Virus record (IMG/VR): IMGVR_UViG_2740892107_000002
Origin: a virus
Taxonomy: Duplodnaviria; Heunggongvirae; Uroviricota; Caudoviricetes
Reading direction: 5' to 3' (one strand)
Length of the DNA stretch: 38,912 bases
In this document: positions 893 through 37,844 of the stretch, one piece after another
Layout of the letters: every line of letters begins with the position of its first letter
How positions within the stretch are numbered: position 1 is the stretch's first letter
Made by a program: the position numbers and the translations under genes
The notes under the pieces: model-generated
What the model saw: the letters and a program-made list of their open reading frames with translations, nothing else
What the model was told of the DNA's origin: nothing
The model's database searches: none

Positions 893-945
893 TGATGCGC
901 CGCGCGATAAATGCACTCTATCTTGTGCGATAAATGGCATCCACG
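893..945. repeat. prophage terminus, invertase-proximal (Mu attR-like), with repeated GCGATAAATG motifs
   Basis: TGATGCGCCGCGCGATAAATGCACTCTATCTTGTGCGATAAATGG; resembles the Mu right end as recalled (TGAAGCGGCGCACG...GATAAATGCG); GCGATAAATG occurs twice in direct orientation. Confidence 0.6.
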
Positions 946-970
946 CGGCGTTTCATTATTTGAAAAAGAA

Positions 971-1543
971 TTACATTTCAGGTTGCGTTATGACAGTCCC
1001 AACAGGGTGATAGCGGTAGATCGTTGACAGTCCAATATCATAGATAATTGCCAGCCGCTTTCTGTCATACCCTTTCTGGAGCAATCTTGCGATCTGCTCA
1101 TGCTGCTCCTTCGTCAGTTTCGGGCGACGTCCTCCAACTCTTCCTTGTGCTCGCGCAGCAGCCAGTCCAGCCAGCGTGCGCTCAACTATCAGTTCACGCT
1201 CCATTTCTGCCAGTGCACCCATCATATGAAAAAAGAACCTTCCCATCGGAGTGCTGGTATCGATTGAATCCGTCAGACTGCGAAAATTGACACCTTTTGC
1301 GCGTAGCTCTTCTGTGAGAGCAATGAGGTGTTTCATTCTTCTACCCAACCGATCCAGCTTCCAGACCACCAATGTATCCCCTCTTTTAAGGCACTTTAAA
1401 GCGCGTTTCAGGCCTGGTCGTTCCGACTTGGTTCCGCTCATTTTGTCCTCAAAAATCTGTTCACATCCTGCGCACATTAATGCATTGCGTTGCAAATCTG
1501 TGTTTTGGTCATTTGTTGACACACGTATGTAGCCAATCAGCAT
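971..1543 (-). CDS. serine DNA invertase (Gin/Pin/Cin/Hin family)
   Basis: [22 protein letters not shown]...[15 protein letters not shown]...[24 protein letters not shown]..., near-identical in pattern to Gin/Pin as recalled. ATG at 1543 with AAAGGGAG upstream; the track ORF start at 1672 is an upstream extension. Confidence 0.92.
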
Positions 1544-1597
1544 TAAAAATACTCCCTTTTGAGTGGTTAAAGTACTGAGATAATGTGGGGAGGATTT

Positions 1598-1623
1598 GAG
1601 AGATAAACGTTGGTTTGGGGGAA
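1598..1623. other. gix/hix-like invertase crossover site 1 (approximate 26 bp)
   Basis: On the minus strand TTCCCCCAAACC-AA-CGTTTATCTCTC: 12-bp half sites around a 2-bp AA core, similar to hix/gix architecture; lies at the 5' edge of a fibre C-terminal cassette. Confidence 0.6.
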
Positions 1624-2043
1624 GGCTCGGCGCTGCCCGTTGGTGTACCTGTTCCGTGGCCCACTGCCACACCGCCAGCAGGCTGGTTAAAGTGCGACGG
1701 GCGCGCCTTTACAAAAGAACAATATCCTGTTCTGGCCAGAGTCTACCCGACCCTCCGTCTTCCCGATTTGCGCGGTGAGTTTATCCGTGGATGGGACGAC
1801 GGGCGAAAAGTGGATACAGGGCGCGATCTGCTTTCACGGCAGGATGGTACAAGTTTTTCTCATTACGCAGGTAATTTTGACATTGGGTCTGGTCATTCAA
1901 TCAATAACTATGACCAAATCCTTGACAACCAACCTGGATTCTCCCGTTTTTCATTTGCAGGTCCTTCGCGAGGCGATGGGGTTAATTATGTGACCATTCG
2001 TCCCCGTAACATTGCGTTTAATTACATCGTAAGGGCGGCATAG
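1615..2043 (+). CDS. alternative tail-fibre C-terminal cassette C (promoterless, silent orientation)
   Basis: Translation GEGSALPVGVPVPWPTATPPAGWLKCDGRAFTKEQYPVLARVYPTLRLPDLRGEFIRGWDDGRKVDTGR... and C-terminal RPRNIAFNYIVRAA parallel the C-terminus of the expressed fibre; frame is open from the crossover site; no own RBS or ATG expected. Confidence 0.7.
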   Translation: MGEGSALPVGVPVPWPTATPPAGWLKCDGRAFTKEQYPVLARVYPTLRLPDLRGEFIRGWDDGRKVDTGRDLLSRQDGTSFSHYAGNFDIGSGHSINNYDQILDNQPGFSRFSFAGPSRGDGVNYVTIRPRNIAFNYIVRAA

Positions 2044-2062
2044 AAACGTTGGTTTAGGAGAA
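2037..2062. other. gix/hix-like invertase crossover site 2 (approximate)
   Basis: On the minus strand TTCTCCTAAACC-AA-CGTTTCTATGCC; same orientation as site 1; sits between the two plus-strand cassettes. Confidence 0.6.
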
Positions 2063-2083
2063 GGCTCGGCGCTACCCGTTGGT

Positions 2084-35767: not shown

Positions 35768-36447
35768 CAGACCAGAATAAACACATTGAGAAACTGAAAA
35801 AGTTGCTGGCGCTGGCCGCATCCGGCAACCCGCACGAGGCCGCTCTGGCACTGTGCCGAGCCCGTAAACTGATGGATGTTCACGGCATCACACATTCCGA
35901 CATTGCTATGAGTGATATTGATGAAACCATCAGTCACTACTGGCCGACAGGCAGTCTCCGTCCACCGCGCTACATGCTGGGCCTGATGAACATCATCCGC
36001 GAGGTATTTGGTGTTAACTCCATCATTCACCCCGGCACGCATCCGTCTGTGGGGTTCTACGGCAACCGGGAACGTGCGGCACTGGCTGCATACACCTGGG
36101 AAGTGCTGGCCCGTCAGCTGAAAAAGGCGCGTCAGCAGTATATCAGTGCACAGAACAAAAGAATAAAAACCGCCACCCGCACCAGCCGTGGAGACCAGTT
36201 TGCCGAAGGCTGGGTGCTGGCCGTTATCAGTGAAATACAGTCCTTTGCCCTGACCGATGATGAGCGTGAACTGATGCAGCAGTGGCTGGAACATAAATAC
36301 CCGCAGACGCAAACCACCAGGGCGCGTAAACCGGGAAGAAGCCGCAATGGCGACGCCTCGCGCTATGCGGGGTTTCGTGAAGGGCAGAACGTCAGACTGC
36401 ACCGCCCGGTCAGTGGGCAGGAACAACAGAAACTGGAGGCCAGATGA
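35764..36447 (+). CDS. hypothetical early protein (DUF2786-like)
   Basis: Start at internal ATG 35764 (MTDQNKHIEKLKKLLALAASGNPHEAALA...) with RBS; the track ORF starts upstream at 35728. Confidence 0.5.
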   Translation: MTDQNKHIEKLKKLLALAASGNPHEAALALCRARKLMDVHGITHSDIAMSDIDETISHYWPTGSLRPPRYMLGLMNIIREVFGVNSIIHPGTHPSVGFYGNRERAALAAYTWEVLARQLKKARQQYISAQNKRIKTATRTSRGDQFAEGWVLAVISEIQSFALTDDERELMQQWLEHKYPQTQTTRARKPGRSRNGDASRYAGFREGQNVRLHRPVSGQEQQKLEAR

Positions 36448-36674
36448 TTACGCTATCAGGTAAAAGCCGGAAATTAAAAGCCTGCCGAATATCTGCCAGA
36501 TACCTTTTTGCCCGCGCCTTTTTTAAGAACGTCAGGCCGGGGATCACAATTGGTGTTATTGCCGGACGCGAACAGGTTGAAAAATACATGTCAGGTGCAT
36601 GGTGGAATAACGACCCTGTCATTGCTGCCCGTAATATTCATATCGAATGGGGAGGTATTCAGAATGACTACTGA
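36444..36674 (+). CDS. hypothetical protein
   Basis: 76 aa, GGAGG RBS, overlapping stop/start. Confidence 0.45.
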   Translation: MITLSGKSRKLKACRISARYLFARAFFKNVRPGITIGVIAGREQVEKYMSGAWWNNDPVIAARNIHIEWGGIQNDY

Positions 36675-36870
36675 AACCATTGTCTGTTTTCTTTTCTGGT
36701 ATATGTACGCAGGATCATGCAGCGCAAGACTTCATCGTTCCCTGGGCTATGGCAGGCACTACGACACCGCGCATTACATCCTGTACATGACCGCCGTCAT
36801 GTTGTTCTGGCCAGTCACCCTGCCAGCTGCAACCGACATTGTTGCCGACAGACTGAAAAAAAGGAGATGA
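36664..36870 (+). CDS. small membrane protein
   Basis: 68 aa with two hydrophobic helices; GGAGG RBS; ATG 36664 within the longer track ORF. Confidence 0.45.
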   Translation: MTTETIVCFLFWYMYAGSCSARLHRSLGYGRHYDTAHYILYMTAVMLFWPVTLPAATDIVADRLKKRR

Positions 36871-36871
36871 T

Positions 36872-37321
36872 ATGCAGAAAAAACGCCTGATACAGCTTAT
36901 CCATATTGCCCGTAATGAACTGGGTATGGATGAAGACACCTACCGCCAGATGTTACAGGGGCTGACCGGTAAAGCCTCAACCAAAGGAATGGATACCACA
37001 CAACTAAACTGCGTGCTGGAATCCATGAAAAAGAAAGGCTTTCGCGTTAAACCAGCCAGAAAAGCCAGCTCCGGTTTACCGCTGGATAACCATCCGCAGT
37101 CCAGGAAAATTCGTGCGCTATGGCTTGAAATGGCTGCTGCCGGCATTGTTCGTGACCGTTCAGAAAATGCATTAGCGAGGTGGATCAAGCGGGAAACGGG
37201 CATCAGCGCCCTGCGCTGGCTCAGTACTGAACAGGCAAGCAGTGTTATTGAGAAACTGAAGAAGTGGCAGCGCAGAGCTGCGGGAGTCAAACATGAGCGA
37301 CCTGAATCAGTTTCGAAGTAA
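36872..37321 (+). CDS. GemA-like protein (Mu gp16 family)
   Basis: 149 aa; N-terminal KKRLIQLIHIARNELGMDEDTYRQMLQ pattern; positioned directly before mor as in Mu. Confidence 0.65.
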   Translation: MQKKRLIQLIHIARNELGMDEDTYRQMLQGLTGKASTKGMDTTQLNCVLESMKKKGFRVKPARKASSGLPLDNHPQSRKIRALWLEMAAAGIVRDRSENALARWIKRETGISALRWLSTEQASSVIEKLKKWQRRAAGVKHERPESVSK

Positions 37322-37682
37322 GGGGCCGGAACTCCTGGTGGAACTGGCACAGCATACCTCTGAGACCGTTCGCGAGATTATTGATATTGAGCCCGAAGTT
37401 GCCGACCAGATTGGTCAGGCCGTCGCGAACCGAATGATGCAGGTCTGGGGCGGGCAAAACGTTTATTTCCCGATGGGCATGGTATGGAAGGTCAGTCAGC
37501 GCGACCGGGAAATCTTCAGGGAGTTTAACGGACGCAACCACCACGAACTGGCCCGCAAATTTGGTGTTTCGCTTCAGTGGGTCTACAGCGTGGTTAAGCG
37601 GGTAAGAAAAGAAGAACTGGATCGGATGCAGGGCAAGCTATTTGCTGATGAACCCGATGCAGATACGGAGAAAAAAGAGTAA
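37293..37682 (+). CDS. Mor/C-family transcriptional activator
   Basis: 129 aa; C-terminal HTH region (FNGRNHHELARKFGVSLQWVYSVVKRVRK) resembles Mu Mor; last gene of the early operon. Confidence 0.8.
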   Translation: MSDLNQFRSKGPELLVELAQHTSETVREIIDIEPEVADQIGQAVANRMMQVWGGQNVYFPMGMVWKVSQRDREIFREFNGRNHHELARKFGVSLQWVYSVVKRVRKEELDRMQGKLFADEPDADTEKKE

Positions 37683-37769
37683 TATCTGCAATCAGGCTGG
37701 CGCGAGTTCTGTTTTTTTTCGGGCCGGTCTGATTTTCACATACTGTAAGGTTATTGCATATTCCTCCTA

Positions 37770-37844
37770 GTCTCTTCCCATTTTGACCCAGTTCTTCCCA
37801 TAAATATCTCACTTATTCCCTGTCATTTATCTCAAGTCTAATCA
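37770..37844. repeat. prophage terminus, mor-proximal, inverted terminal repeat with putative transposase-binding repeats
   Basis: Read inward the end is TGATTAGACTTGAGATAAATG, matching the other end at positions 1-4 (TGAT) and 13-21 (GATAAATG); further CTTCCCAT / ATAAAT-like repeats upstream. Confidence 0.55.

What the first reader, a model, noticed from the sequence alone, without database searches (positions are those of the whole stretch)
893..37844. Intact Mu-like transposable prophage inserted between otsB and araH
All modules needed for a functional transposable phage appear present and uninterrupted. Termini are TG...CA with matching internal motifs and a flanking CCATTT direct repeat. 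The two host flanks together total 166 bp once the repeat is counted once, consistent with insertion into a short intergenic spacer. A 6-bp rather than 5-bp duplication would differ from canonical Mu, though a 1-bp boundary offset cannot be excluded.
Basis: partly seen in the sequence, partly recalled or inferred. Interest (0 to 1): 0.55.

Follow-up and report, generated by a model that had tools for sequence, protein, structure and literature searches.

The report
BcepMu-like transposable prophage in E. coli
This is a 37-kb virus genome that jumped into the short gap between two E. coli genes using a transposase; it belongs to an already described group (BcepMu/B3-type transposable phages) in which the 6-base target duplication that looked odd is the normal footprint.

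Summary
A 36,952-bp element (893-37844) starts with TG, ends with CA, and is flanked by CCATTT on both sides. The reconstructed empty otsB-araH site, with one CCATTT, is present in 5,415 of 5,426 complete E. coli genomes. Only 3 of those genomes carry this insertion.

The same element sits at many other loci (lplA, yehY, dmsC, irp2 and others). In 5 of 5 independent insertions the duplication is exactly 6 bp, so there is no 1-bp boundary offset.

This is a transposable prophage, but not a Mu-type one. Its transposase has only an rve core. It is 68% identical to BcepMu gp09, 57% to B3-like Pseudomonas phages, and 100% to Escherichia phage PhiKM (classified as Bcepmuvirus). Thirty-four of 50 proteins are collinear with BcepMu, and the end motifs match. 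Published work names a 6-bp duplication as the B3/Tn552-type footprint.

"Intact" needs caveats: a +1G frameshift in a 93-aa accessory ORF, a gpE-like protein 21 aa shorter, and a tape measure 174 aa shorter. The transposase gene is in 639 of the 5,426 genomes. The element is known and ordinary; interest is low.

The parts
1..801 (-). otsB (trehalose-phosphatase), host flank
   Evidence: PGAP annotation of the identical flank in EcPF7; present in 5,423 of 5,426 genomes
887..892 (.). left copy of the 6-bp target-site duplication CCATTT
   Evidence: present once in the empty site
893..37844 (.). whole transposable prophage, 36,952 bp, TGATGCG...TAATCA
   Evidence: alignment break points; identical ends at 5 different loci
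904..936 (+). two subterminal repeats GCGATAAATG (904-913 and 927-936) spaced 23 bp apart; putative transposase-binding sites of the tail-side end
   Evidence: same positions and motif at both BcepMu ends; 23-bp imperfect end repeats described for BcepMu/phiE255 (PMC2920897)
971..1543 (-). Gin/Hin-type serine DNA invertase (190 aa)
   Evidence: Pfam Resolvase 8e-51 plus HTH_7
1605..3656 (.). multi-cassette invertible tail-fibre region. Silent C-terminal cassettes at 1615-2043 (+) and 2084-2566 (+), tail-fibre assembly gene at 2566-3180 (+), and the expressed cassette at 3187-3648 (-). About 230-244-bp repeats at 1605-1850 and 2044-2274 are inverted relative to 3413-3656
   Evidence: three different arrangements among four sequences that share this insertion
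3187..4635 (-). tail fibre (gpH-like) with three 168-bp (56-aa) tandem repeats and the currently fused C-terminal cassette
   Evidence: Pfam Phage_fiber_2 1e-73 and Collar; repeats found; repeat copy number differs between copies
4638..9536 (-). P2-like baseplate and tail genes I, J, W, V, D, X, U
   Evidence: PGAP names; 46-63% aa identity to BcepMu gp45-51, collinear
9536..12226 (-). tape measure protein, 896 aa, with an in-frame 174-aa deletion relative to the 1,070-aa version in other copies
   Evidence: 892 of 896 aligned residues identical, one contiguous gap
12447..12719 (-). gpE-like tail chaperone, 90 aa; a CAG>TAG change removes the last 21 aa found in other copies; the overlapping E' frame is unchanged
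12817..13098 (-). 93-aa accessory ORF (phrog_1239, function unknown) broken by a G6 run where other copies have G5
   Evidence: no BcepMu homologue
13102..15050 (-). tail tube (13102-13626) and tail sheath (13623-15050)
   Evidence: 67% and 76% aa identity to BcepMu gp40 and gp39
15040..23745 (-). Mu-like head module: TerS 23200-23745, TerL 21608-23149, portal (DUF935) 20112-21608, MuF-like 19310-20131, G 18849-19307, protease/scaffold 17519-18634, major capsid 16551-17504, connectors 15040-16541
   Evidence: 44-67% aa identity to BcepMu gp27-38, same order
23745..26106 (-). lysis module: holin 25756-26106, SLT transglycosylase 25013-25753, Rz-like 24379-25029, and two small conserved genes
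26237..28514 (.). variable cargo slot: 242-aa, 134-aa and 71-aa proteins of unknown function, plus a D12-class (Dam-like) adenine methyltransferase at 27660/27750-28514
   Evidence: this stretch is replaced by different genes in other copies
28631..28987 (-). cI/Cro-type HTH repressor, divergent from the early operon
   Evidence: Pfam HTH_3 5e-15 and Phage_CI_repr
29081..30878 (+). early regulators: BcepMu gp16-like HTH 29081-29269, winged-HTH 29322-29630, DUF3102 29641-30561, and a hypothetical protein 30561-30878
30894..32663 (+). TnpA, a DDE transposase of the rve (Tn552/B3/BcepMu) type, 589 aa
   Evidence: Pfam rve only; phrog_310 4e-147; 100% identical to PhiKM, 68% to BcepMu gp09, 57% to B3-like phages
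32674..33840 (+). TnpB, an AAA+ (ExeA/Eha-type) transposition ATPase, 388 aa
   Evidence: Pfam AAA_22 4e-20; phrog_296 'DNA transposition protein'; 59% identical to BcepMu gp08
34140..34670 (+). Gam host-nuclease inhibitor
   Evidence: Pfam Phage_Mu_Gam 2e-40
36872..37682 (+). GemA (36872-37321) and Mor late activator (37293-37682)
   Evidence: Pfam GemA 8e-41 and Mor 1e-43
37799..37833 (-). subterminal repeats of the Mor-side end: GAGATAAATG (37824-37833) and a degenerate GAGATATTTATG (37799-37810)
37845..37850 (.). right copy of the 6-bp target-site duplication CCATTT
37926..38912 (-). araH (arabinose ABC permease), host flank

Best explanation
The element is a BcepMu-like (B3/Tn552-type) transposable temperate myophage integrated in the E. 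coli chromosome by DDE transposition. Inferred mechanism: TnpA, an rve-core transposase, binds the two subterminal G(C/A)GATAAATG-type sites at each end and nicks at the terminal TG/CA. It then joins the 3' ends to target strands staggered by 6 bp, and gap repair leaves the CCATTT duplication. TnpB, an AAA+ ATPase, is inferred to deliver target DNA. A cI-type repressor maintains lysogeny. On induction the rightward early operon (regulators, TnpA, TnpB, Gam, GemA, Mor) would drive replicative transposition, and Mor would switch on the leftward late genes for lysis, a Mu-like head and a P2-like contractile tail. A Gin-type invertase shuffles three alternative tail-fibre C-termini to change host range. 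Shown here: the boundaries, the 6-bp duplication, the empty site, multi-locus distribution, homology and synteny with BcepMu, and inversion activity. Inferred from the family: the chemistry, replicative transposition, headful packaging, and whether this particular copy is inducible.
For: Empty site with a single CCATTT in 5,415 of 5,426 genomes. This insertion is in only 3 genomes. The same ends occur at lplA, yehY, dmsC, irp2, cysE and other loci, and 5 of 5 measured insertions have exact 6-bp duplications of different sequence. TnpA has Pfam rve only and matches phrog_310; it is 100% identical to PhiKM (taxonomy Bcepmuvirus), 68% to BcepMu/phiE255 and 57% to B3-like phages. TnpB matches AAA_22 and phrog_296 and is 59% identical to BcepMu gp08. 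Thirty-four of 50 proteins have collinear BcepMu homologues, and the gene order is the same as in NC_005882. Terminal motifs lie at the same offsets as in BcepMu, matching the 23-bp end repeats described in PMC2920897. The literature calls a 6-bp duplication the footprint of a B3/Tn552-family transposase (PMC8705779) and reports TG...CA ends for BcepMu-related prophages with an rve core (PMC2628397). All 50 mapped genes are open. The transposase gene is in 639 of 5,426 genomes, at >=99% identity in 448. The invertible segment is in three states among four sequences sharing this insertion.
Against: No experiment on this copy shows induction or transposition. Three lineage-specific changes could impair virion assembly: a G6 frameshift in a 93-aa ORF, a gpE-like protein shortened by 21 aa, and a tape measure shortened by 174 aa. 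Nucleotide similarity to BcepMu itself is low, with blastn covering 29% of the element at 68% identity, so it is not the same genus by a strict nucleotide-identity criterion. The PhiKM record is a partial genome of unclear origin, either virion or prophage.
Confidence: 0.95

Rival explanations
1. It is a canonical Mu-type (MuA/MuB) prophage that makes an unusual 6-bp instead of 5-bp duplication.
For: TG...CA ends; Mor, GemA, Gam, a Mu-like portal, F and G head genes, and a Gin-type invertible tail-fibre segment.
Against: The transposase has no Mu-transposase Pfam domains, only rve. tblastn against 50,697 phage records at E<=1e-5 returns 69 records, none of them Mu or D108. Early and late genes diverge from a central repressor, as in BcepMu. 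The tail genes are P2-like. A 6-bp duplication is the norm for the B3/Tn552 transposase type (PMC8705779).
Confidence: 0.03
2. This copy is a defective (grounded) prophage. It was integrated by transposition, but because of its lineage-specific lesions it can no longer produce infectious particles.
For: A +1G frameshift splits a conserved 93-aa ORF (phrog_1239). A premature TAG occurs in the gpE-like chaperone. The tape measure has a 174-aa in-frame deletion. Degraded relatives exist, for example the N196 copy with a truncated transposase fused to a truncated portal.
Against: All 50 mapped genes, including TnpA, TnpB, repressor, terminase, portal, capsid, sheath and tube, are open. The 93-aa ORF has no counterpart in BcepMu, so it is probably accessory. 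The G6 allele also occurs in a copy at a different locus (cysE, N196), so it either predates at least one integration or arose again by homopolymer slippage. The TAG leaves a 90-aa protein and an unchanged E' frame. In-frame tape-measure length changes normally alter tail length rather than abolish assembly (general knowledge). The invertase has been active since insertion.
Confidence: 0.3
3. It is a site-specifically integrating P2-like prophage whose CCATTT flanks are an att core.
For: P2-like tail gene set and a recombinase gene at one end.
Against: The recombinase is a 190-aa Hin/Gin-type invertase, not an integrase. No tyrosine integrase is present. The identical element is found at many unrelated loci with different 6-bp flanks. 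Only 3 of 5,426 genomes have it at otsB-araH, while 639 carry the transposase gene.
Confidence: 0.01

Closest known systems
Escherichia phage PhiKM (GenBank PQ738613.1; NCBI taxonomy Bcepmuvirus; from uropathogenic E. coli)
   Same: DNA identity is 98.9-99.6% over the aligned parts. The transposase is 100% identical. The immunity and cargo region, including the Dam-like methylase, is the same.
   Different: PhiKM is a partial, rearranged record with a sequencing gap in the tape measure and a host gene fragment. It lacks the invertase and cassette end. It carries the intact G5 and CAG alleles where the window has G6 and TAG.
Burkholderia phage BcepMu (NC_005882) and phiE255
   Same: Thirty-four of 50 proteins are homologous (31-76% aa identity) in the same order. 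Both have a Tn552/IS1604-type rve transposase with an ExeA/Eha-type ATPase, divergent early and late operons, a Mu-like head, a P2-like tail, and TG...CA ends with two subterminal repeats at the same offsets.
   Different: Only 29% of the DNA aligns, at 68% identity. The window has Gam, a different semi-essential early region, a different repressor, a Dam-like methylase, and a Gin-type invertase with three tail-fibre cassettes where BcepMu has an acyltransferase.
Pseudomonas phage B3 group (for example JBD25, JD18, H72)
   Same: The transposase is 57% identical across its full length. A 6-bp target duplication is attributed to B3 (PMC8705779).
   Different: From general knowledge, not tested here, these are siphoviruses with a different morphogenesis module. 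DNA similarity is limited to a roughly 100-bp stretch in gam.
Phage Mu
   Same: Lifestyle: a transposable temperate phage with TG...CA ends. It shares Mor/C, GemA, Gam, the portal/F/G head genes, and a Gin-invertible tail-fibre segment.
   Different: Mu makes a 5-bp duplication and has MuA-type transposase domains, a unidirectional gene layout and Mu-type tail genes. None of these is found here.
Klebsiella phage KP12 and Escherichia phage Phi06_2974 B
   Same: The transposase is 93% identical, and about 86% DNA identity extends over most of the late region.
   Different: The early, immunity and cargo regions differ: only 42-43% of 25801-37844 aligns.

Membership tests
BcepMu-like transposable phages (B3/Tn552-type transposase; Bcepmuvirus in the broad sense) | DDE transposase with an rve core related to BcepMu gp09 / Tn552 / B3 TnpA | tested here: met
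   Pfam rve is the only domain. The protein is 68% identical to BcepMu gp09 over 577 aa and 57% to B3-like phages. BcepMu gp09 is annotated as 'Tn552/IS1604 rve transposase'.
BcepMu-like transposable phages (B3/Tn552-type transposase; Bcepmuvirus in the broad sense) | Adjacent AAA+ (ExeA/Eha-type) transposition ATPase | tested here: met
   AAA_22 4e-20; phrog_296; 59% identical to BcepMu gp08.
BcepMu-like transposable phages (B3/Tn552-type transposase; Bcepmuvirus in the broad sense) | TG...CA termini with repeated subterminal transposase-binding motifs | tested here: met
   The motifs lie at positions 12-21 and 35-44, as at both BcepMu ends. Supported by PMC2628397 and PMC2920897.
BcepMu-like transposable phages (B3/Tn552-type transposase; Bcepmuvirus in the broad sense) | 6-bp target-site duplication and insertion at many sites | tested here: met
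   5 of 5 insertions have exact 6-bp duplications. At least 13 differently annotated flanks appear among the 60 listed hits. PMC8705779 gives 6 bp as the B3/Tn552 footprint. I found no open text stating the duplication length for BcepMu itself.
BcepMu-like transposable phages (B3/Tn552-type transposase; Bcepmuvirus in the broad sense) | Genome layout: Mor/GemA end, leftward early operon, central repressor, then lysis, Mu-like head and P2-like tail | tested here: met
   Thirty-four of 50 proteins are collinear with NC_005882.
BcepMu-like transposable phages (B3/Tn552-type transposase; Bcepmuvirus in the broad sense) | Genus-level nucleotide identity to BcepMu (about 70% over the genome, an ICTV-style criterion recalled from general knowledge) | tested here: not met
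   blastn covers 10.8 of 36.95 kb at 67.7% identity. NCBI nevertheless files the near-identical PhiKM under Bcepmuvirus.
BcepMu-like transposable phages (B3/Tn552-type transposase; Bcepmuvirus in the broad sense) | Replicative transposition and packaging of variable host DNA at virion ends | not testable with these tools
   Requires induction and sequencing of virion DNA. Described for BcepMu/phiE255 in PMC2920897.
Mu-type phages (Muvirus; MuA/MuB) | MuA-type transposase (Mu end-binding and Mu C-terminal domains) | tested here: not met
   Only rve passes at E<=0.01. No Mu or D108 record appears among 69 tblastn hits.
Mu-type phages (Muvirus; MuA/MuB) | 5-bp target-site duplication | tested here: not met
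   The duplication is 6 bp in 5 of 5 insertions.
Mu-type phages (Muvirus; MuA/MuB) | Repressor at the left end with all other genes transcribed in one direction | tested here: not met
   Early genes at 29081-37682 are on the + strand and late genes at 971-26106 are on the - strand, diverging from the repressor and cargo region.
Mu-type phages (Muvirus; MuA/MuB) | Mor/C, GemA, Gam, portal gp29, F and G homologues | tested here: met
   Pfam Mor, GemA and Phage_Mu_Gam. DUF935 portal, head morphogenesis (F-like) and virion morphogenesis (G-like) proteins in the PGAP annotation.

The most novel reading that the evidence does not exclude
The evidence does not exclude that this E. coli BcepMu-like phage lineage is currently active as an insertional mutagen and rearrangement driver in extraintestinal pathogenic E. 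coli. It is in about 12% of complete genomes, with up to 3 copies per genome. Near-identical copies interrupt genes such as irp2 (yersiniabactin), lplA, dmsC and yehY, and remnants mark deletions or inversions. I found no population-level description of this in the searchable literature. It also carries a three-cassette, shufflon-like tail-fibre switch that flips within clonal lineages.
Probability: 0.35. Interest if true: 0.35.

Novelty: already known. Interest (0 to 1): 0.15.

Why it matters
It matters little for discovery. The element is essentially the same phage as a GenBank entry (PhiKM), and it belongs to a transposable-phage group characterised since 2004. Prophage-prediction tools already report it in E. 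coli ST131 as 'Burkho_phiE255' / Bcepmuvirus (bioRxiv 10.1101/2022.05.07.487787).

The practical value is in annotation. The 6-bp duplication and TG...CA ends give exact boundaries for a prophage that pipelines mis-bound; one example is a 'P88' record that actually contains aroA plus this element's left end. Because it inserts almost anywhere, it inactivates host genes, including virulence loci, in a sizeable fraction of clinical E. coli.

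Tried and rejected
1. A 5-bp duplication with a 1-bp boundary offset (element TTGATG...CA or TG...CAC). This fits the window alone, but it is rejected because the bases outside TG and CA differ at each of five insertion sites.

2. The window comes from EcPF7. Rejected: EcPF7 differs in the invertible region and has one extra 168-bp tail-fibre repeat. TUM1857 differs by one inversion, and FCI23 has the same arrangement but one more repeat. The exact source genome was not identified.

3. Sequence search of TnpA and TnpB against solved structures gave only marginal, uninformative hits, 6voy and DppD. 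There was no MuA, TnsB or MuB match by sequence. I did not run structure prediction because family placement was already decisive.

4. A PADLOC scan of the variable cargo slot found only the methyltransferase and no known defence system. PHROGs places the other cargo proteins in families of unknown function.

5. A literature search for a paper on PhiKM found none. The original BcepMu paper (Summer et al. 2004) is not in the library, so the duplication length for BcepMu itself could not be quoted.

6. I did not build a target-site logo. Five sites are too few to call a preference.

Full report
**Observation**

The window is E. coli chromosome. otsB lies at 1-801 on the minus strand and araH at 37926-38912 on the minus strand. 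The left junction reads ...GGGTCG-CCATTT-TGATGCGCC and the right junction reads ...GTCTAATCA-CCATTT-GTAACG. The element is therefore 893-37844 (36,952 bp), with TG...CA termini and CCATTT at 887-892 and 37845-37850.

Megablast of 1-1300 against 5,426 complete E. coli genomes aligns 1-892 in essentially all of them and stops there. A synthetic empty site, made from 300 bp of each flank with one CCATTT, matches end to end at 100% identity; 5,415 genomes carry it at >=80% coverage. Only three genomes (EcPF7, TUM1857, FCI23) carry the insertion at this locus.

**Is the duplication 6 bp?**

From the window alone, a 5-bp duplication with a shifted boundary is also possible, with the element read as TTGATG...CA or TG...CAC. 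I fetched four further full copies inserted in lplA, yehY, dmsC and irp2.

All four have identical termini, TGATGCGCCGCG...CAAGTCTAATCA. Their exact 6-bp direct repeats are TCAATG, GCAGGG, CGATGG and CCCTTT. The bases immediately outside TG and CA vary from site to site, so the duplication is 6 bp and the ends are TG and CA.

The right end occurs at about 700 extra places in the genome set. Annotated flanks among the first 60 hits include irp2, cysE, dmsC, yehR, yehY, yehK, lplA, cbtA, dcuC, a TonB-dependent receptor and an exonuclease.

**What it is**

The PGAP annotation of the near-identical EcPF7 copy and my domain scans give the following layout, from low to high coordinates:

- A Gin/Hin-type invertase and an invertible tail-fibre region.
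- P2-like tail and baseplate genes (H, I, J, W, V, D, X, U, tape measure, E/E', tube, sheath).
- A Mu-like head module (TerS, TerL, DUF935 portal, F, G, protease/scaffold, capsid).
- A lysis module (holin, SLT, Rz-like).
- A variable cargo slot that includes a Dam-like methylase.
- A cI-type repressor on the minus strand.
- A plus-strand early operon: two HTH regulators, DUF3102, TnpA, TnpB, Gam, about eight small ORFs, GemA and Mor, ending 160 bp from the right terminus.

The transposase has only an rve core in Pfam. By tblastn against 50,697 phage records it is 100% identical to Escherichia phage PhiKM and 93% to Klebsiella phage KP12 and Escherichia phage Phi06_2974 B. It is 68% identical to BcepMu and phiE255 and about 57% to B3-like Pseudomonas phages. 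No Mu or D108 record is hit.

PhiKM DNA is 98.9-99.6% identical to the window, and NCBI files it under Bcepmuvirus. Thirty-four of 50 window proteins have BcepMu homologues at 31-76% identity in strictly the same order.

The ends are also built the same way. Window left, window right, BcepMu left and BcepMu right all start TGA(A/T)G. All carry G(C/A)GATA(A/T)(A/T)T at positions 12-21 and again at about 35-44. This matches the 23-bp imperfect end repeats described for BcepMu and phiE255 (PMC2920897).

**The 6-bp duplication is not an anomaly**

[quoted passage not shown] PMC2628397 notes that TG...CA termini characterise BcepMu-related prophages with an rve catalytic core. The feature that made the finding look unusual is therefore expected once the transposase is assigned to the right family.

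**Mechanism**

Shown here: the boundaries, the duplication, the empty site, dispersal to many loci and homology. The rest is inferred from the family, as follows.

- TnpA binds the paired subterminal sites, nicks at TG/CA and transfers the 3' ends to target phosphates 6 nt apart.
- TnpB (AAA_22, phrog_296) supplies target DNA.
- The repressor keeps the early operon off.
- On induction the phage replicates by transposition. Mor activates the late genes, and headful packaging carries host DNA at the virion ends.

**How intact is it?**

All 50 genes mapped from the EcPF7 annotation are open in the window. Relative to commoner copies there are four differences:

- A G6 run where other copies have G5 frameshifts a 93-aa ORF between the tube and gpE genes (12817-13098). 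This ORF belongs to phrog_1239, of unknown function, and has no BcepMu counterpart. The same G6 allele is present in a copy at a different locus (cysE in strain N196). It therefore probably predates at least one integration, or recurs by slippage.
- A CAG>TAG change shortens the gpE-like protein from 111 to 90 aa and leaves the overlapping E' frame unchanged.
- The tape measure has a clean in-frame 174-aa deletion; 892 of 896 aligned residues are identical.
- The tail fibre has three 168-bp repeats, where other copies have four to about six.

I put the chance that this particular copy cannot make infectious particles at about 0.3.

**Evidence of recent activity**

The invertible region (1605-3656) holds three alternative tail-fibre C-terminal cassettes bounded by 230-244-bp repeats. 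The four sequences that share the otsB-araH insertion show three arrangements. The window and FCI23 are alike, TUM1857 differs by one inversion of 2049-3656, and EcPF7 differs by two inversions. The invertase has therefore worked since integration.

The transposase gene is in 639 of 5,426 genomes, at 708 places and up to three per genome. In 448 genomes it is at >=99% identity.

**Distribution and novelty**

Transposase relatives were confirmed at 208 stretches in GTDB species-representative genomes. The hosts span Enterobacterales, Burkholderiales, Neisseriales and Pseudomonas. Prophage predictors already label this element in ST131 E. coli as 'Burkho_phiE255' / Bcepmuvirus, including its invertase and tail-fibre rearrangements (bioRxiv 10.1101/2022.05.07.487787).

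By nucleotide identity it is not the same genus as BcepMu: blastn covers 29% of the element at 68% identity. It is nevertheless the same phage as PhiKM.

**Verdict**

This is an already known kind and essentially an already deposited phage. Interest is low.

Noticed in passing
window 1605-3656 (with invertase 971-1543): The tail-fibre switch is not a simple two-state G segment. It has three alternative C-terminal cassettes, only one of which is followed by a tail-fibre assembly gene. Three arrangements occur among four sequences that share the same prophage insertion, so the switch behaves like a small shufflon.
   Followed up: yes
window 3815-4428: The tail-fibre gene contains 168-bp (56-aa) tandem repeats. 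Copy number varies between copies of the phage: 3 in the window, 4 in EcPF7 and FCI23, and about 6 in AVS0750.
   Followed up: partly
window 26237-29029; L003 27611-30241: The stretch between the lysis genes and the early operon is a swap-in cargo and immunity slot. The window type has three proteins of unknown function plus a Dam-like methylase and a 118-aa repressor. Other copies have three different unknown proteins and a 153-aa repressor. PADLOC recognises only the methylase.
   Followed up: partly
L004 (NZ_CP189514.1, strain N196) 5531-14600: This is a degraded copy at cysE. The transposase gene, truncated at its N-terminus, abuts a truncated portal gene in the opposite orientation, and the tail region stops next to a truncated rhsC. 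This looks like a prophage-associated inversion or deletion of host and phage DNA.
   Followed up: no
L091 (plasmid pCUVET16-559.2, NZ_CP150992.1) 2501-2611: An orphan 111-bp left end of the element starts exactly at TGATGCG. It sits inside what reads as the first ~17 codons of a plasmid serine-recombinase gene (MLIGYIRISTNDQNTAL...). It is probably the remnant of an insertion into a phage-plasmid followed by deletion.
   Followed up: partly
L092 (PV468777.1 'Entero_P88') 1501-2871: A GenBank record labelled as a P88-like phage from ST131 ends with host aroA followed by the left end, invertase and cassettes of this BcepMu-like element. The predicted prophage boundaries in that record are therefore wrong.
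   Followed up: partly
window 802-892, minus strand: The insertion lies 86-91 bp upstream of the otsB start codon. It is about 20 bp upstream of a TCTATACTTAC sequence that resembles a sigma-S type extended -10 element. Sequences upstream of the otsBA promoter are thus replaced by the phage end, which might alter osmotic or stationary-phase regulation. This is inference only.
   Followed up: no
window 12302-12719, minus strand: The E' extension of the tail chaperone pair lies in the +1 frame (equivalently the -2 frame) relative to the gpE-like ORF, not the -1 frame. I did not find an obvious slippery heptamer.
   Followed up: no
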